Of a stretch of 64,000 nt of DNA, positions 1-57,252 are shown piece by piece. The stretch lies in the sequence record NC_019399.1. One strand, written 5' to 3'. Every line of letters begins with the position of its first letter. The stretch's first letter is position 1. This DNA is from Escherichia phage vB_EcoM_ACG-C40. Below the pieces are notes generated by a model. That model saw only the letters and a program-made list of their open reading frames with translations. It had not been told where the DNA came from and did not search any database. A program made the position numbers and the translations under genes.

Positions 1-737
1 ACCTCCGCGCTGTTCACGGTATGGATGCTGATGCTGAACTGTCTGGCATTCTGGCTACAGAAATTATGTTGGAAATCAACCGCGAAGTTGTTGATTGGAT
101 TAACTACTCAGCTCAGGTTGGTAAATCTGGTATGACCCTGACTCCGGGTTCTAAAGCTGGTGTATTTGACTTCCAGGACCCAATCGATATTCGTGGTGCT
201 CGCTGGGCAGGTGAATCCTTTAAAGCTCTGTTGTTCCAGATTGACAAAGAAGCAGTTGAAATTGCTCGTCAGACTGGTCGCGGCGAAGGCAACTTCATTA
301 TCGCTTCCCGTAACGTAGTTAACGTTCTGGCTTCAGTTGATACCGGCATTTCTTATGCTGCACAGGGTCTGGCTACCGGCTTTAACACTGATACTACCAA
401 GTCAGTATTTGCCGGTGTTCTGGGCGGTAAATACCGTGTATATATCGACCAGTATGCTAAACAGGATTATTTCACTGTAGGTTATAAAGGTCCGAACGAA
501 ATGGATGCTGGTATTTACTATGCTCCATATGTAGCTCTGACTCCGCTGCGTGGTTCCGATCCGAAGAACTTCCAACCGGTAATGGGATTCAAAACTCGTT
601 ACGGTATCGGTATCAACCCATTTGCAGAATCCGCTGCTCAGGCTCCGGCTTCTCGCATCCAGAGCGGTATGCCTTCTATTCTGAATAGCCTTGGTAAAAA
701 CGCTTACTTCCGCCGTGTATATGTTAAAGGTATCTAA
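1..737 (+). CDS. 23: major capsid protein gp23, C-terminal part (5' end outside window)
   Basis: ORF open to window start; translation ends ...AYFRRVYVKGI, recognised as T4-type gp23 C-terminus. Confidence 0.9.
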   Translation, partial: LRAVHGMDADAELSGILATEIMLEINREVVDWINYSAQVGKSGMTLTPGSKAGVFDFQDPIDIRGARWAGESFKALLFQIDKEAVEIARQTGRGEGNFIIASRNVVNVLASVDTGISYAAQGLATGFNTDTTKSVFAGVLGGKYRVYIDQYAKQDYFTVGYKGPNEMDAGIYYAPYVALTPLRGSDPKNFQPVMGFKTRYGIGINPFAESAAQAPASRIQSGMPSILNSLGKNAYFRRVYVKGI

Positions 738-750
738 TCTTTGACGATTT

Positions 751-781
751 AAGGGACCTTCGGGTCCCTTTAGTTGTTTTT
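751..781 (+). terminator. rho-independent terminator after gene 23
   Basis: GC hairpin aagggacc-ttcg-ggtccctt followed by T-rich run. Confidence 0.7.
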
Positions 782-785
782 ATGG

Positions 786-793
786 TATAAATA
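786..793 (+). promoter_or_regulatory. T4-type late promoter (TATAAATA) for gene 24
   Basis: exact TATAAATA about 30 nt upstream of the gene 24 ATG. Confidence 0.7.
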
Positions 794-820
794 AATCATA
801 TAAACTGAAAGGAAAGCGCA

Positions 821-2104
821 ATGGCTAAAATCAACGAACTTCTGCGCGAATCAACCACAACGAATAGCAACTCAATCGGTCGCCCAAATCTCGTTGCTTT
901 GACTCGCGCTACCACTAAATTAATATATTCTGACATTGTAGCAACGCAAAGAACTAATCAACCTGTTGCTGCTTTTTATGGTATCAAATACCTTAACCCG
1001 GATAACGAATTTACATTTAAAACTGGTGCTACTTACGCTGGCGAAGCTGGGTATGTAGACCGAGAACAAATCACAGAATTAACAGAAGAGTCTAAATTAA
1101 CTCTCAATAAAGGCGATTTATTCAAATATAATAATATCGTTTATAAAGTATTAGAAGATACACCATTTGCTGATATTGAAGAAAGCGATTTAGAATTAGC
1201 TCTTCAGATTGCAATCGTTCTTTTAAAGGTTCGTCTATTTTCTGATGCTGCAGTAACAAGCAAATTTGAAAACTCTGATAGCGAAATTGCGGATGCTAGA
1301 TTCCAGATTAATAAATGGCAAACCGCAGTTAAATCTCGTAAACTTAAAACTGGCATCACAGTTGAATTAGCACAAGATTTAGAAGCAAACGGATTCGATG
1401 CTCCTAATTTCTTGGAAGATTTGCTTGCAACTGAAATGGCGGATGAAATCAATAAAGATATTCTGCAGTCTTTGATTACAGTATCAAAACGCTATAAAGT
1501 TACAGGAATTACTGATACTGGATTCATTGATTTGAGTTATGCATCTGCACCTGAAGCTGGTCGTTCATTATACCGAATGGTGTGTGAAATGGTTTCACAT
1601 ATCCAGAAAGAATCAACTTATACAGCAACGTTCTGTGTTGCTTCAGCTCGTGCCGCTGCGATTCTTGCTGCATCAGGTTGGTTAAAACATAAACCAGAAG
1701 ATGACAAATATCTTTCACAAAATGCCTACGGGTTCTTAGCTAATGGTTTACCGCTTTATTGCGATACCAACAGTCCATTAGATTATGTAATCGTTGGCGT
1801 AGTAGAAAATATTGGTGAAAAAGAAATTGTTGGATCAATTTTCTATGCTCCGTATACAGAAGGTCTTGACTTAGATGACCCTGAACATGTAGGTGCATTT
1901 AAAGTTGTTGTTGATCCAGAAAGCTTACAACCGTCTATCGGTTTATTAGTTAGATATGCTTTATCAGCAAATCCTTATACCGTAGCAAAAGATGAAAAAG
2001 AAGCAAGAGTAATTGATGGTGGAGATATGGATAAAATGGCGGGTCGTTCAGATTTGTCTGTTTTATTAGGTGTTAAGCTACCAAAAATTATCATTGATGA
2101 ATAA
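821..2104 (+). CDS. 24: head vertex protein gp24
   Basis: 427-aa ORF, gp23 paralog, position directly after gene 23. Confidence 0.9.
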   Translation: MAKINELLRESTTTNSNSIGRPNLVALTRATTKLIYSDIVATQRTNQPVAAFYGIKYLNPDNEFTFKTGATYAGEAGYVDREQITELTEESKLTLNKGDLFKYNNIVYKVLEDTPFADIEESDLELALQIAIVLLKVRLFSDAAVTSKFENSDSEIADARFQINKWQTAVKSRKLKTGITVELAQDLEANGFDAPNFLEDLLATEMADEINKDILQSLITVSKRYKVTGITDTGFIDLSYASAPEAGRSLYRMVCEMVSHIQKESTYTATFCVASARAAAILAASGWLKHKPEDDKYLSQNAYGFLANGLPLYCDTNSPLDYVIVGVVENIGEKEIVGSIFYAPYTEGLDLDDPEHVGAFKVVVDPESLQPSIGLLVRYALSANPYTVAKDEKEARVIDGGDMDKMAGRSDLSVLLGVKLPKIIIDE

Positions 2105-2107
2105 AAC

Positions 2108-2136
2108 AAAGGGACCGAAAGGTCCCTTTTTTATTT
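2108..2136. terminator. bidirectional hairpin terminator between gene 24 and rnlB
   Basis: aaagggacc-gaaa-ggtccctttttt, T/A-rich on both sides. Confidence 0.65.
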
Positions 2137-3139
2137 AACTTACCAATTCAATCCAAGCCGGACGAAGTACATCTTGTACCATTTTAACTAATTCCTTCTT
2201 AATCAAAGAAGGATTATCCGCTTGAGTTAGAGTAATACCTTCACGAGAAGTTTCTTCCAAAATATCTTGAACAGTTAGCCCCATCACCTTTCCAAAATCT
2301 TTTGGACCAATTTCACCAATTTTAGAAATAACGTTATTTACTCGGTTCAGTGTAACGTAGCAAGCTAAAATTCCCACCAATTTGTTATCAGCTTCTGATA
2401 GTTCAACTTTAGCTTTAATAGGCTTATCAGACTTTTTCTTTTCACTAAATTTGGAATTCTTGCATTTGATGGCTACACGATTTCCATTATGAAGTCAAGA
2501 AGGATAACAAGGTTTCAATACATATCCTTCAGCGGTAAATACTTCGCCTTTGGCTTCAGCTTTCCAAACACATTTGTTAGCGTCAACTAATCCAGCATGG
2601 TCTACTGTAAAATTATAATCTTGGACGACAGAATCTAAATCATTTGGCAATTTAATAAGCTCTTCAAATTTACCGCGACCTAAAAGTGGAGCCATTTTAA
2701 ATTTAAATGTATTACAAAATGATTCCATCATATAATCATCGACATAAGTCACATCACCACTTTCTGTAGTGACAATAATGTCAAATACATAAAAATCTTT
2801 ATCGCCATAATCGACATTCTTCTGAATGCCAGGTCCAGCGAATTCGCCAAAGACTTGATAAGATACAACCGCTGAGGTTTCCATAATATCTTGTACTGCT
2901 TTAATAGAATCTTCGTAATTCTTTAGAATAATTTCATACCCAAAGAAATCTTCAGCAGGAAGAATCGGTCCAGTACGTTTAGCGCAAGTTACTTTATCAC
3001 GCTCAATAATCAATGAGAAATTTGTGCCGTGAATCTTTTCACGAGCTACCCACTCCCCACCAGTCAATCCCAAGCTATAAAGTTTTTCAATAAATTTAGA
3101 GTTGTAATGATTTTCAAGACTGCTATACTTTTTAAACAT
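2135..3139 (-). pseudogene. rnlB: RNA ligase 2 (Rnl2) reading frame interrupted by in-frame TGA at codon 215 (2495..2497)
   Basis: N-terminal ORF 2495..3139 has ligase motif I EKIHGTN; frame continues in phase through *LHNGNRVAIKCKNSKF (motif V lysines) into ORF 2135..2380; total 334 codons plus stop. Confidence 0.8.
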
Positions 3140-3730: not shown

Positions 3731-4862
3731 TTATGGATAGGTGTAGATGATACCAGTTTCTAAAGCAGTTTTATGAATGATGTATCCATTGCGTGATTCT
3801 TGAACATCAACTTCTGGATAGTCTTTCATCATCTTCTGAAGAGTGTAACGATGCAGGTAGTATTTACTGTCTGGATCTTCAGTTTTCCAATCTTTACCTT
3901 CTTCGGTCATTTTTTGGATTTCATCCATAACCCACCAACCGCACCAGATATAAGCTGAAGTACGATGTGGAAGAGGATGAACATAAGGTAGTTCACCTTC
4001 TGGTTCTGGAGCAACTTTATCAGTTACCTGAACTTGACCTTCTGCTGTAATAGTTTTGCTATCATAATCAGTTGCAGTAACGACAGCAGTAACTTCAATA
4101 GTTTGACTTCCAACAGATGAGGTATCGACAGTATATACGTTAGTTGACCCTTCTACAGGAGAAGAATCTTTCTTCCATGAGTAAGTAATTTGTGCTTCTT
4201 CTGGAGCACCCGTAACATTAGCCGTAAATGTAGCCGAAGCATCTTGCTGAACATTAATAGAAGGAGGAGTCAATGTAACCTGTGGATTCATTGTCTTCTT
4301 ATTAACTGTCAATGATACTTCATTAGAAGTAACTTCCTTTTCATTGTAATTTTCAGCAGTTACTTGCGCTACACACTTGATTTTTTTTAACTCCACTTGT
4401 GTCAGGAGTGTAATTGAATGTAGCGTCAGTTGCTTTGTCTACAGGAGAACCGTCAACGTGCCATTGATACGTAGGGTTTGCACCTGATGGCTGTGAAGCT
4501 AAGGCAGCGGTAAATTCAATTGGAGTTCCAATCACTCCAGCATCAGGGCTACCAGGAGTTACAGCTAAAGTAGTTGTTTGTGTCTTATTTTGAACTGTGA
4601 TAGTTGTACTAATTTCTGCTGTTTCAGGTTCAGATTCTGCAACTTGATTGGTTGCAACTACTTTAATAGTCTTTTGACCGGCAGGTCCTTTTAGTACATA
4701 ACTAAAAGTTGCTGACGTTTCTTCCTGTGGAGCGTCGTCTACAGTCCAAGCATATGTAATAGATCCATCTCCAGTTTGACCACTGGGTGTAGCAGTAAAC
4801 TGCTGAGTCTGATCTATAACTCCAGTAGGTGTTTTAGGAGTTATATCAACTGTAAAAGTCAT
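3731..4862 (-). pseudogene. hoc: head outer capsid protein Hoc, disrupted by +1 frameshift in A8 run (4381..4388)
   Basis: two overlapping ORFs (4353..4862, 3731..4396) both with Ig-like Hoc sequence; span is 376 codons + stop + 1 nt. Confidence 0.8.
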
Positions 4863-17324: not shown

Positions 17325-17685
17325 CTACATTTTGAACTTTTTAGTACGCGTAATAGGCATGCGTCGATTTTATACTGTTTCATTGTTTGAAGAGCAGTAT
17401 CAAAAACAGCATTAATGACACCAATTGGATTTCCACCCAAGTTTTTAAGCTTAACTAATGATAGTTTCTCATTAACACCTATCATTACGATATGCATCAT
17501 TTTGTCGCCTGGTTTAACGTTTTATCTGTATCACCGCCAGAGGTGTATGTACAAAATCTAAATCCAGGAAGCACGCTTTCTTCGCCGGCTTGAATAGCAA
17601 AAATTTGTGGTATTTTATGCTTAGGATTTAAGTTAACAACCGGCGCCGAAGCGCCGTCAAATAATTATGTAATAAGTTCCATGAT
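17294..17685 (-). pseudogene. degenerate tandem partial copy of the alt 5' region
   Basis: - strand reads MELIT*LFDGASAPVVNLNPKHKIPQIF...FRFCTYTSGGDT then MMHIV...MKQYKIDACLLRVLKS, paralogous to Alt residues 1-120 but with stop at codon 6 and frame breaks. Confidence 0.7.
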
Positions 17686-19734
17686 TTATCCTTGAACGAA
17701 CTTGTAAGGCATGTTTGCAATATCTATGCAAGACGCAATAATTCCAAGAGATGATTCTACTTTCTGTTTAACATTTGATGAAACAAATGATGCAAAGTCA
17801 ACTCTGTCTTCTATATCACCTGTCATTGTAACCAATTCACCAGTTTCCATTAAATGGTCTCCGTCATAGATTACCGATTCGGTGAGTTCTTCTGTGGTCA
17901 TAACTTCAGCTTGAATAAGCTTGTTGTTAGTTCTAACTGTTCCATCGTTGTAAGATGCATCGGTTATTTTATTAACTTTGACCATTAATCCACGTGGCAA
18001 AATGACTTCCATTTCATTTGAAGGCGCTAAACTTCCACCGGGTAAAACAACATTAACCTTATCAGCCCCAGTAATAACCCATCCAATTCCAACTAAATTA
18101 TCGCTAGAATTTACTAGTCCTTCATCAGTTTTATCAATAGAAACACTTAGACGCTTTTCGTCTGGTAAAACACCCACAGATGAATCAGTCATCCAAGTAC
18201 CAAAAATATTTGGATATAATGATGTTGACACAAAGTTTCTAAAATAAAAAACTCGATTTTTTACCATTGCTTCGTATATTGAAGGTAACATTCGTTGTGA
18301 ACGATACAAAGTAATACCTTTTGGTAATCGTTCACCATTTTTAAAGGCTGAATCTAAATTATCAATGGCTTGTTCTATTTCAGGTGCTGTTAAAATACTT
18401 GTACGCTCATCTGGATTATATAATCCCAAAAGAGCATTATTTATGTCTACATATCCTGAACCTACGTATTCACGAATTCCGCGTTTTTGTGCTGGTGTGT
18501 ATTTAGATGAATCTTTATTTTCGACTATAGGATGTAATGACCATCCAGCGGTAAGAGCATATCCACGTAATTCTCTTCGAATAATCTTTGTTTTTATTGC
18601 ATTCCAAGAATTTTGTACTAACTCATTTGCAGCATCTTGGTTTAAATGCGAATGTCTGTTAATATTTCTTTCAAACCAAGCACCTTTATATTTTTCTAAA
18701 GTATCATCGACGATAGAAGCAATAGTTTCTAAAGTTTTTATTGAAGTAATAGATTCTTTTCGTAATTTTTCTAAAGCTTTATTTTTTATTTCTGCATTAA
18801 TAATGGATTCTTTATCTTCAGGAATTATAGAAGCTTCTCTGAATGCCATCCCAGCTGTAACACTGCTAAGAGCATTCTCTAGTGCAAATCCTGAAGTAGA
18901 AATTACCGTTAATTCATTAGAATCAGAAATTAAAGGAGCGTCCGCTGGTTTATTTAATTCTGCCGCTGAAGCCTCAAATTTTTGAAACATCGGTGTTTCA
19001 AATCTAGAAGATTCCAACGACTGACTTTGTGCAATTGCTCTACGGGAAATTTTAACTTTAACGATTACAGCTTGATCAGAACGTTTATCATTTTCTTGTG
19101 CAATAGATGCTGCAATTGCCTCATTTTTAGTTACTTGAGCTCCAGTATCTTTATTGATATAAACATCACCGACCTTCGATTCAACTTTAGTAAAGAGCTC
19201 GGTACTAATTTCCGGAACCCCTGGAATGTCTTCTAGTGATACATTTTTGCGATGTATAAGAATATATGCATACTTTTTATCATAATCCCAGAGTTCCTTA
19301 AGAAGGACGTATCTGCCACCTGAACGACTACGGATAAGTCTATCAGCAATAACTTGAATTTGTCGAGCTTGACCAGCGGTTTTAGACTTAAGAATACGGA
19401 GCATACAGGCATCAATTTTATACTGACGCATCGTTTGCATTGCAACAGTAAAAACCGAATTGATATAATTAATTGGGCTTGGACCAAGACCTTTCAATTT
19501 AGCAATTGAACCTTTAGCGGTTAATGTAAAAGGAACAATATGCATCATTTTATCGCCCATCTTTAAATCACGATTAGTATCACCTCCAGATGTATAGGTA
19601 CATAAACGAAAGCCTGGTTGTTCAATTGCGTCATCAACATGAACTGAAAAAATTTGCGGTATTTTCTTCTTTGGATTTAAGTTTGTAATCGGAAGAGTAG
19701 TATCTTCGTCAAATAATTCTGTAATTAGTTCCAT
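17686..19734 (-). CDS. alt: ADP-ribosyltransferase Alt
   Basis: 682-aa product starting MELITELFDED (second Met of track ORF), recognised. Confidence 0.9.
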   Translation of the reverse strand: MELITELFDEDTTLPITNLNPKKKIPQIFSVHVDDAIEQPGFRLCTYTSGGDTNRDLKMGDKMMHIVPFTLTAKGSIAKLKGLGPSPINYINSVFTVAMQTMRQYKIDACMLRILKSKTAGQARQIQVIADRLIRSRSGGRYVLLKELWDYDKKYAYILIHRKNVSLEDIPGVPEISTELFTKVESKVGDVYINKDTGAQVTKNEAIAASIAQENDKRSDQAVIVKVKISRRAIAQSQSLESSRFETPMFQKFEASAAELNKPADAPLISDSNELTVISTSGFALENALSSVTAGMAFREASIIPEDKESIINAEIKNKALEKLRKESITSIKTLETIASIVDDTLEKYKGAWFERNINRHSHLNQDAANELVQNSWNAIKTKIIRRELRGYALTAGWSLHPIVENKDSSKYTPAQKRGIREYVGSGYVDINNALLGLYNPDERTSILTAPEIEQAIDNLDSAFKNGERLPKGITLYRSQRMLPSIYEAMVKNRVFYFRNFVSTSLYPNIFGTWMTDSSVGVLPDEKRLSVSIDKTDEGLVNSSDNLVGIGWVITGADKVNVVLPGGSLAPSNEMEVILPRGLMVKVNKITDASYNDGTVRTNNKLIQAEVMTTEELTESVIYDGDHLMETGELVTMTGDIEDRVDFASFVSSNVKQKVESSLGIIASCIDIANMPYKFVQG

Positions 19735-19757
19735 CATATCCTCTCTAGTGTTTATTC

Positions 19758-22537: not shown

Positions 22538-22998
22538 AGAGAGTCTCTTAATAGGTTTAACACATCAATAAATTCAGCTTCGGTTAGTATTGTATCATCT
22601 TTTGTTAGACCACTAGCCATGCTGTGCTTCAAAACTTTTCCTTTCGAGGCTTGTAATGCATCGCGAAAGCCCTTGTTTTGAATCGCTGCTTCAAAATATG
22701 CATTTGTGTATAATTCTTTCCACGCCGGGGAGTATCTTGAAAACGGAACTCCAAGCCAGAAGAGGGTCCCACGGTCCTGAGCTCTAGCATAAGACCTTCC
22801 AGCTTGTTGAGCGGCAAGCCCGGATAACCCAAATATACGTTTTTGTTGTTCAACGTTTTTCACCTTGCATCCTTGGAGGAATCCTTCAAGACCTCCAAAT
22901 TGAATACCATCCATAACGAAAGGCCATTGGGCGAAATTACTTAATGCACATGATGGCCACCTAAAATTGCTTCTAATCTCTAACTCAGACATTTTCAA
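22534..22998 (-). CDS. hypothetical protein (154 aa)
   Basis: ORF track. Confidence 0.55.
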   Translation of the reverse strand: MKMSELEIRSNFRWPSCALSNFAQWPFVMDGIQFGGLEGFLQGCKVKNVEQQKRIFGLSGLAAQQAGRSYARAQDRGTLFWLGVPFSRYSPAWKELYTNAYFEAAIQNKGFRDALQASKGKVLKHSMASGLTKDDTILTEAEFIDVLNLLRDSL

Positions 22999-55715: not shown

Positions 55716-55798
55716 AGACCTTCCCCTTATGTTTCTGTTTGCGATTAGATTCTTTAAACGCTTTCTTCTTATCCTTATGAACAGAAGCTTTATTAAAA

Positions 55799-56017
55799 TT
55801 ATGTTTTGCGACTAAATTGTTCATAGTGCTGAATTACCTCTCTTAAACATTTGCATGTGAATGAAAACTTTTTAGCTACACCACATTCAAATATATGTTC
55901 TCTTAAATCACGTGTATCAGTATATCCCATCTCAACAATAAAATGCCTTATTAGATTTTTATCTTTATCATTGAGAGAATTAAAATAATCAGATTTTGAA
56001 TTAATTTCCCTGGCCAA
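55799..56017 (-). CDS. hypothetical protein (72 aa)
   Basis: ORF track. Confidence 0.5.
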   Translation of the reverse strand: MAREINSKSDYFNSLNDKDKNLIRHFIVEMGYTDTRDLREHIFECGVAKKFSFTCKCLREVIQHYEQFSRKT

Positions 56018-56912: not shown

Positions 56913-57119
56913 TCATTTAAACCATCCTTTAATACGTTGCCATAAAGTTTTCTGTTGAGCTTTGTTAACACCAATTGAACGAATAACTGGTTGAGATTCC
57001 TGAAATTCTTTATAATCAGCAAGGTAAATTTCGTAAGCTGCATCCGTAAATGAACTTATAGCTGCCATGAAATTATTGCGAATACCTACTGGAGCATCTT
57101 TACTTTCACGAATAATCAT
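56913..57119 (-). CDS. hypothetical protein (68 aa)
   Basis: ORF track. Confidence 0.5.
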   Translation of the reverse strand: MIIRESKDAPVGIRNNFMAAISSFTDAAYEIYLADYKEFQESQPVIRSIGVNKAQQKTLWQRIKGWFK

Positions 57120-57252
57120 ATATTTACCAGTCTTAATCTTTACAATAGTTCAAAGATAAGCTCCATGGTACCAAATATCCCAACCCTCTTGAGTAGGTTC
57201 TGCACAACGACGAAGTTCATTAACAATTTCTAACTTGTTCATTATTTATTCC

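What the first reader, a model, noticed from the sequence alone, without database searches (positions are those of the whole stretch)
2495..2497. In-frame opal (TGA) codon at position 215 of RNA ligase 2
The rnlB frame runs 334 codons in one phase but is interrupted by TGA at codon 215, between motif I (K35 in EKIHGTN) with E204, and the motif V lysines (AIKCKN = K225/K227) plus the C-terminal domain. From memory the T4 residue here is Trp (TGG), so this looks like a single G-to-A nonsense change. A truncated 214-aa product would lack motif V and should be inactive unless the opal codon is read through.
Basis: partly seen in the sequence, partly recalled or inferred. Interest (0 to 1): 0.5.

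Follow-up and report, generated by a model that had tools for sequence, protein, structure and literature searches.

The report
Nonsense mutation in phage RNA ligase 2
One base change has put a stop codon in the middle of the dispensable RNA ligase 2 gene of the T4-like coliphage vB_EcoM_ACG-C40; it is an ordinary gene knockout already visible in the published annotation, not a recoding signal.

Summary
rnlB lies on the minus strand (2135..3139). The + strand TCA at 2495-2497 reads TGA at codon 215 of a 334-codon frame.

T4 and the four nearest relatives have TGG (Trp) there, so this is a single G>A change on the coding strand. The window is the last 64 kb of Escherichia phage vB_EcoM_ACG-C40. 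Its GenBank record and the paper's Table S1 already list the gene as two "RNA ligase 2 RnlB" ORFs.

The allele is private. None of 460 phage records matches the site exactly, and the TGA pattern is absent from the viral, metagenome and genome collections.

All 33 intact orthologs read through this position (Phe or Trp in 29), and motif V downstream is invariant. The 214-aa product lacks K225/K227 and the C-terminal domain, so it should be inactive.

I found no recoding signal:
- there is no stable RNA structure after the stop;
- 32 of 94 genes in the window use TGA as their terminator.

Other viable relatives (DalCa, T2, AV120 and two IMG/VR contigs) carry independent rnlB lesions, so the gene is dispensable.

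The most likely reading is a recent, tolerated nonsense mutation. Low-level Trp-tRNA readthrough could remake wild-type protein. Interest is low.

The parts
2135..3139 (-). Whole rnlB (RNA ligase 2, T4 gene 24.1 ortholog): 334 codons plus TAA, interrupted at codon 215
   Evidence: Translation. Full-length match to T4 Rnl2 PDB 2HVQ, E = 6e-225, with 3 substitutions plus the stop. Lies between gene 24 and 24.2 as in T4.
2495..2497 (-). Premature opal codon TGA (codon 215), followed by C on the mRNA. TGG (Trp) in T4 and the nearest relatives.
   Evidence: Private allele.
2498..3139 (-). N-terminal 214-codon ORF. It equals GenBank AFH20137.1/YP_006986729.1 and the authors' orf173. It holds motif I (K35 at 3035-3037) through motif IV (E204).
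   Evidence: Exact-sequence look-up. Table S1 of PMC3347319. Pfam RNA_ligase PF09414 matched over profile positions 2-158 of 171, so the domain is cut short.
2456..2473 (-). Motif V (AIKCKN, K225 and K227), now downstream of the stop
   Evidence: Invariant in 33 of 33 intact orthologs. Role in adenylylation: PMC3149579.
2138..2494 (-). 119 in-frame codons after the stop: motif V plus the Rnl2 C-terminal domain. The authors' orf172 is the 80-codon tail, 2135..2377.
   Evidence: Pfam T4_Rnl2_C PF18043, E = 8e-25. Only R217H differs from T4 in protein, and 13 differences are synonymous. orf172.
2108..2129 (.). Bidirectional terminator hairpin between gene 24 and rnlB. rnlB is the last gene of its unit, so the stop cannot be polar on other genes.
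   Evidence: Terminator scan. The same feature is annotated in phage DalCa.

Best explanation
This is a recent spontaneous transition (TGG to TGA on the coding strand, C to T on the + strand) in rnlB of phage vB_EcoM_ACG-C40. It ends translation after residue 214.

The product keeps the motif I lysine but lacks the end of the nucleotidyltransferase domain (motif V, K225/K227) and the whole C-terminal nick-binding domain. It should be unable to adenylylate itself or to seal RNA nicks.

The phage tolerates the loss because Rnl2 is dispensable for plaque formation. The RNA ligase 1 (rnlA) and polynucleotide kinase (pseT) homologs are intact in the window.

A small fraction of ribosomes may read UGA with near-cognate Trp-tRNA(Trp). 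That would put back the ancestral Trp and give wild-type Rnl2, so the allele may be a strong hypomorph rather than a strict null.

Shown: the base change, its privacy, the conservation of the downstream part, and independent disruptions in relatives.

Inferred: loss of activity, tolerance, and any readthrough.
For: - Single private substitution. The window has T at 2495 where four relatives have C. T4 has TGG. Among 460 phage records none matches the 111 bases around the site exactly, and 47 match at 110 of the 111 bases. The five of those records read here (L001-L003, L005, L040) have TGG and differ only at 2495.
- The TGA pattern is absent from the viral, metagenome and genome collections. 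The TGG control pattern is found.
- The exact 214-aa protein is on record from one contig only, that of ACG-C40.
- The genome was sequenced by 454 at 195-930x (PMC3347319), and the authors kept the stop in their annotation.
- Orthologs: 33 of 35 IMG/VR loci are intact. Position 215 is Phe in 16 and Trp in 13. RVAIKCKNSKFSEK is invariant or nearly so.
- Domain loss is shown by Pfam and supported by the literature.
- Dispensability: DalCa has G283>TGA. T2 and AV120 have frameshifts. L035 and L039 have frameshifts. SV76 RnlB is 200 aa. Shuman's group writes that the biological role of Rnl2 in infection is unknown (PMC3884662).
- Leakiness of UGA: about 2-4% readthrough in E. coli K-12 through competition between Trp-tRNA(Trp) and RF2 (PMC10570021), and 1e-2 to 1e-3 in older work (PMC4989110).
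- rnlA and pseT homologs are intact in the window.
Against: - No reads are available, so an error in the consensus cannot be excluded.
- There are no further private changes downstream of the stop. That fits a very recent event but equally fits an error or continued selection through readthrough.
- Loss of activity is inferred from mutational and structural literature on T4 Rnl2. It was not measured for a 1-214 fragment.
- The readthrough figures come from K-12 reporters, not from the uropathogenic host or from this sequence context.
Confidence: 0.8

Rival explanations
1. Consensus or editing error: the real phage has TGG and an intact rnlB.
For: The allele is seen in one record only. The same 454 assembly has an extra base in an 8-base homopolymer in hoc that no relative shares, a typical 454 artefact. 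The gene is otherwise undamaged.
Against: 454 errors are mainly homopolymer length errors, not substitutions (general knowledge). Turning GCC into GTC needs an undercall and an insertion together. Coverage was 195-930x. The authors proof-read the record and annotated two ORFs. A second private substitution to TGA exists in arn.4, so substitutions of this kind are not unique to this site.
Confidence: 0.12
2. Functional recoding: the UGA is efficiently decoded through programmed readthrough, a phage or host opal-suppressor tRNA, or selenocysteine, so full-length Rnl2 is made on purpose.
For: There are two private in-frame TGA codons in the window: rnlB W215 and arn.4 G31. The rnlB stop is followed by C, a weak terminator context (from memory: Poole, Brown and Tate 1995). 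Only 1 of 32 natural TGA stops in the window is followed by C. The phage has 10 tRNA genes outside the window that I could not read.
Against: No relative has a stop here, so nothing is conserved. The 91 nt around and after the stop fold no better than shuffles (z = -0.86), so there is no SECIS-like or stimulatory structure. TGA ends 32 of 94 genes in the window. The closest relative also has 10 tRNAs (Arg, Asn, Tyr, Met, Thr, Ser, Pro, Gly, Leu, Gln), with none annotated as Trp or as a suppressor. The window itself holds no tRNA gene.
Confidence: 0.03
3. Split gene: the 214-aa N-terminal fragment and a separately initiated C-terminal fragment (the authors' orf172, 80 aa) are both made and act together or have new roles.
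For: The authors annotated both pieces. In T4 Rnl2 the adenylyltransferase domain and the C-terminal domain are separable modules (PMC3884662).
Against: The break is inside the catalytic domain, not at the domain boundary near residue 249. Motif V (codons 223-228) would be in neither piece, because orf172 starts near codon 254. The arrangement is not conserved in any relative. I saw no obvious Shine-Dalgarno sequence before the GTG/TTG start on direct reading.
Confidence: 0.03

Closest known systems
T4 RNA ligase 2 (Rnl2, gp24.1, rnlB; PDB 2HVQ/2HVR/2HVS, 1S68)
   Same: Ortholog. The protein is 334 aa with the same gene neighbours. It is identical to the crystallised T4 protein except A76E, N193K, R217H and the stop.
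   Different: Codon 215 is TGA instead of TGG, so the primary product stops before motif V and the C-terminal domain.
Rnl2 truncated (residues 1-249), the laboratory enzyme
   Same: Both are C-terminally shortened forms of Rnl2.
   Different: Rnl2(1-249) keeps the whole adenylyltransferase domain, including K225/K227, and still carries out steps 1 and 3. The ACG-C40 product ends 35 residues earlier, inside that domain.
Independent rnlB lesions in other Tequatroviruses (DalCa G283>TGA; T2 and AV120 frameshifts; SV76 200-aa RnlB)
   Same: Each is a single disabling lesion in an otherwise conserved rnlB of a viable, plaque-forming phage. DalCa's is also an opal codon made by one base change.
   Different: The positions differ. 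Where located (DalCa, and the 3' frameshifts of T2 and AV120), the other lesions hit the C-terminal domain or the extreme C-terminus. The ACG-C40 lesion also removes part of the catalytic domain.
Leaky UGA read by Trp-tRNA(Trp) in E. coli (for example the coliphage Q-beta A1 readthrough protein, cited from memory)
   Same: The same near-cognate decoding could act here. Because the lost residue was Trp, it would restore the exact wild-type protein (mechanism: PMC10570021).
   Different: In Q-beta the UGA is conserved and the extension is functional. Here the UGA is private to one isolate and nothing suggests selection for it.

Membership tests
Rnl2-family ATP-dependent RNA ligase (T4 gp24.1 orthologs) | Nucleotidyltransferase domain with the motif I lysine (KxxG) | tested here: met
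   K35 in EKIHGTN. Pfam PF09414, E = 2.5e-22.
Rnl2-family ATP-dependent RNA ligase (T4 gp24.1 orthologs) | Motif V lysines (K225, K227) on the same polypeptide as motif I | tested here: not met
   The stop at codon 215 separates them. Motif V is encoded in frame downstream and is invariant in orthologs. The gene belongs to the family; the primary product is not a complete ligase.
Rnl2-family ATP-dependent RNA ligase (T4 gp24.1 orthologs) | Rnl2-specific C-terminal domain | tested here: inconclusive
   PF18043 is encoded intact after the stop, E = 8e-25. It is translated only if the stop is read through or translation restarts.
Rnl2-family ATP-dependent RNA ligase (T4 gp24.1 orthologs) | Conserved position between gene 24 and 24.2 | tested here: met
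Rnl2-family ATP-dependent RNA ligase (T4 gp24.1 orthologs) | Ligase-AMP formation and nick sealing | not testable with these tools
   Needs biochemistry.
Programmed stop-codon recoding (readthrough, selenocysteine, code reassignment) | The in-frame stop is conserved among relatives | tested here: not met
   No relative has it. The allele is absent from all collections searched.
Programmed stop-codon recoding (readthrough, selenocysteine, code reassignment) | Stimulatory RNA structure just downstream (SECIS-like hairpin or pseudoknot) | tested here: not met
   Minimum free energy -12.9 kcal/mol, z = -0.86 against shuffles.
Programmed stop-codon recoding (readthrough, selenocysteine, code reassignment) | TGA not used as a normal terminator in the genome | tested here: not met
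   32 of 94 mapped genes in the window end in TGA.
Programmed stop-codon recoding (readthrough, selenocysteine, code reassignment) | A cognate suppressor tRNA | not testable with these tools
   The ACG-C40 tRNA cluster lies outside the window and the record is not in the collections. The nearest relative's 10 tRNAs are ordinary by annotation.
Nonsense allele of a dispensable accessory gene | One private disabling change in an otherwise conserved gene, with independent disabling changes in viable relatives | tested here: met
   for the private change. for the other lesions.

The most novel reading that the evidence does not exclude
ACG-C40, or the uropathogenic host it was grown on, suppresses opal codons appreciably, for example through a mutant phage tRNA with a UCA anticodon. 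That would explain why two private in-frame TGA codons (rnlB W215 and arn.4 G31) sit in otherwise perfectly conserved genes, and both genes would still give full-length protein.
Probability: 0.03. Interest if true: 0.55.

Novelty: already known. Interest (0 to 1): 0.1.

Why it matters
It matters little. It is one more natural knockout showing that Rnl2 is dispensable for growth of T4-like phages under laboratory conditions. That agrees with the still unknown biological role of this widely used enzyme.

ACG-C40, DalCa and T2 could serve as ready-made rnlB-defective phages. Comparing them with intact relatives on hosts that carry RNA-damaging defence systems might reveal that role.

For annotation, the two "RNA ligase 2" entries of ACG-C40 are better described as one gene with a premature stop.

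Tried and rejected
- Fetching the ACG-C40 record (NC_019399, JN986846) to read its tRNA cluster: not in the collections. The exact-protein contig look-up also found nothing.
- Counting window-private substitutions against three relatives (PYps10T, 232Ecol030PP, T4), to judge whether nonsense changes are over-represented. It gave 456 "singletons", far too many to be truly private in these mosaic genomes, so I dropped the analysis as uninformative.
- An apparent frameshift in a 430-aa gene at about 22556. T4 has the same sequence and annotates two genes there, 30.3 and 30.2, so it is not a defect of this genome.
- Selenocysteine or structured readthrough: rejected for lack of structure and of conservation.
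- Code reassignment: rejected because TGA is a common terminator in the window.
- Reading Engelberg-Kulka 1981 and Poole et al. 1995 for the context effect on UGA: not held. The statement that UGA-C is a weak terminator rests on memory and on their citation.

Full report
**What is in the sequence**

The gene is on the minus strand. The + strand bases 2495-2497 read TCA, which is TGA on the coding strand. Translating 2135..3139 on the minus strand gives one frame of 334 codons ending in TAA, with a single internal stop at codon 215.

The mechanical ORF list shows the 214-codon N-terminal ORF (2495..3139) and a short downstream ORF in the same frame.

**What the codon was**

With Trp restored at 215, the protein matches T4 RNA ligase 2 (PDB 2HVQ) over its full length. 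It differs only by A76E, N193K and R217H, and the T4 residue at 215 is Trp.

In the T4 reference genome, rnlB codon 215 is TGG. Of the other 38 nucleotide differences between the window and that gene, 32 are synonymous. Six fall in four replaced codons: A76E, C112G, N193K and R217H.

An alignment with the four nearest phage records shows that position 2495 is the only place in rnlB where the window differs from all four, with T against C on the + strand.

**Where the window comes from**

The exact 214-aa product is GenBank AFH20137.1 / YP_006986729.1, "RNA ligase 2" of Escherichia phage vB_EcoM_ACG-C40, and it is on record from one contig of 167,396 bp.

The describing paper is Chibeu et al. 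2012 (PMC3347319). It reports 454 pyrosequencing at 195-930x coverage and manual proof-reading.

Its supplementary table lists orf172 (105531..105773) and orf173 (105891..106535), both named "RNA ligase 2 RnlB". These coordinates place the window at genome 103,397-167,396. The split is thus already in the public annotation, although the paper's text does not mention it.

**How unusual the allele is**

A 111-base query centred on the stop found 460 phage records. None was identical, and 47 matched at 110 of the 111 bases. The five of those records whose sequence was read here (L001-L003, L005, L040) carry TGG and differ only at 2495.

A 26-base pattern carrying the TGA is absent from the viral, metagenome and genome collections. 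The same pattern with TGG is found.

Of 35 related loci from IMG/VR, 33 have an intact gene of 328-336 codons. Position 215 is Phe in 16 and Trp in 13. The downstream stretch RVAIKCKNSKFSEK is invariant or nearly so. No ortholog ends at 214.

**What the stop does to the protein**

The N-terminal piece matches Pfam RNA_ligase over profile positions 2-158 of 171, so the catalytic domain is cut short. The piece after the stop matches the Rnl2 C-terminal domain family.

The literature gives the roles of the missing parts:
- AMP is bound to K35.
- K225 and K227 of motif V contact the AMP phosphate and, with R55, are key for ligase adenylylation (PMC3149579).

A 1-214 fragment lacks both motif V and the C-terminal domain. 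I infer that it is inactive. This was not measured.

**Why the phage tolerates it**

rnlB is the last gene before a bidirectional terminator hairpin at 2108-2129 (annotated as such in phage DalCa). The stop therefore cannot affect downstream genes.

Other viable relatives carry independent lesions in the same gene:
- DalCa has GGA>TGA at codon 283.
- T2 and AV120 have frameshifts near the 3' end, and T2 also has one near the 5' end.
- Two IMG/VR contigs have frameshifts.
- SV76 has a 200-aa RnlB.

In an evenly spaced sample of 60 of the 684 matching records, three showed a lesion that I verified (DalCa, T2, AV120), which is roughly 5%. This is similar to 2 of 35 in IMG/VR.

The group that characterised the enzyme states that its biological role during infection is unknown. 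The RNA ligase 1 (rnlA) and polynucleotide kinase (pseT) homologs are intact in the window.

**Is it read through?**

I found nothing pointing to programmed recoding:
- The stop is not conserved.
- The 91 nt around and after it fold no better than shuffled sequence (z = -0.86).
- TGA ends 32 of 94 mapped genes in the window.
- The window has no tRNA gene.
- The nearest relative also has ten tRNAs, all annotated with ordinary amino-acid identities and none as Trp or a suppressor.

Ordinary leakiness is still likely. UGA is the leakiest stop in E. coli, at 1e-3 to 1e-2 (PMC4989110), or about 2-4% in a K-12 reporter. The level is set by competition between Trp-tRNA(Trp) and RF2 (PMC10570021).

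The stop here is followed by C. From memory (Poole, Brown and Tate 1995), that is the weakest context, and only 1 of the 32 natural TGA stops in the window has it.

Because the near-cognate tRNA inserts Trp, any readthrough product would be wild-type Rnl2. The allele may therefore be a strong hypomorph rather than a null. The level in the natural host is unknown.

**Could it be an error?**

This cannot be excluded without reads. A substitution at 195-930x is not the typical 454 error, and the authors kept it after proof-reading. I put this rival at about 0.12.

The same assembly does contain one probable 454-type problem, an extra base in an 8-base run that splits hoc and that no other record shares.

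**Other things seen**

- A second private in-frame TGA lies in arn.4 (GGA>TGA at codon 31, window 57150-57152). The product is otherwise identical to that of phage T6. T4 itself lacks the upstream ATG and annotates only a 68-aa Arn.4 from an internal Met, so this change is of little consequence.
- A small arn.1-like ORF ends two codons early.
- An apparent frameshift at about 22556 is the normal T4 30.3/30.2 arrangement.
- Two private opal codons in one window leave a small opening for opal suppression. I rate that reading at about 3%.

**Verdict**

This is a private nonsense mutation in a dispensable accessory gene of a published phage, it is already visible in that phage's annotation, and it has several independent parallels in relatives. 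It is ordinary, and interest is low.

Noticed in passing
window 57150-57152 (minus strand), in arn.4 at 56913..57242: A second private in-frame opal codon: GGA (Gly31) has become TGA in arn.4. The product is otherwise 100% identical to T6 Arn.4. The best of 229 phage records differs from the window only at this base. T4 lacks the upstream ATG and annotates only the 68-aa form starting at internal Met42, which would still be available here.
   Followed up: yes
window 4381-4388 (T8 on the + strand, A8 in the hoc mRNA); hoc ORFs 4353..4862 and 3731..4396, minus strand: hoc is split by one extra A in a homopolymer: A8 here against A7 in PYps10T, while T4 has an interrupted run. In the twelve best-matching records listed for this stretch, the matched span is one base shorter than the query. 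The authors proposed translational frameshifting. A 454 homopolymer overcall or a real knockout of the dispensable Hoc are the rivals.
   Followed up: partly
window 55799-55801 (minus strand), small arn.1-like ORF at 55793..55930: CAA has become TAA at codon 44 of a 45-codon ORF, shortening it by two residues relative to PYps10T. I did not check whether the change is private.
   Followed up: no
window about 22546-22561 (minus strand); L040 24305..25597; L047 23475..24766: T4 genes 30.3 and 30.2 (also separate in this window) form a single 430-aa ORF in Yersinia phage PYps10T, which has CCC where T4 and the window have CC. The two T4 genes may be halves of one ancestral gene, or PYps10T may carry a fusion or an error.
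   Followed up: partly
L004 (DalCa) 535..1539; L049 (T2); L050 (AV120); L035 and L039 (IMG/VR): Independent disruptions of rnlB in other viable T4-like phages. DalCa has GGA>TGA at codon 283. T2 has frameshifts near both ends. AV120 has a 1-nt deletion near codon 316. Two IMG/VR contigs have frameshifts. This is roughly 5% of the genomes sampled.
   Followed up: yes
whole window, 94 mapped genes: Stop codon usage is TAA 60, TGA 32, TAG 2. Only 1 of the 32 natural TGA stops is followed by C, whereas the premature TGA in rnlB is followed by C.
   Followed up: partly
L047 (T4 NC_000866) rnlB codon 112, compared with PDB 2HVQ: The T4 reference genome encodes Cys112 (TGT) in Rnl2. The crystallised T4 Rnl2 and this window have Gly112. 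This is a discrepancy between the T4 reference genome and the cloned enzyme.
   Followed up: no
window 17336-17685 (minus strand), downstream of alt (17689..19737): There are weak partial matches to the N-terminus of Alt, including one with a stop. They resemble the alt.-1/alt.-2 remnants that the T4 annotation describes as an old partial duplication of alt.
   Followed up: no
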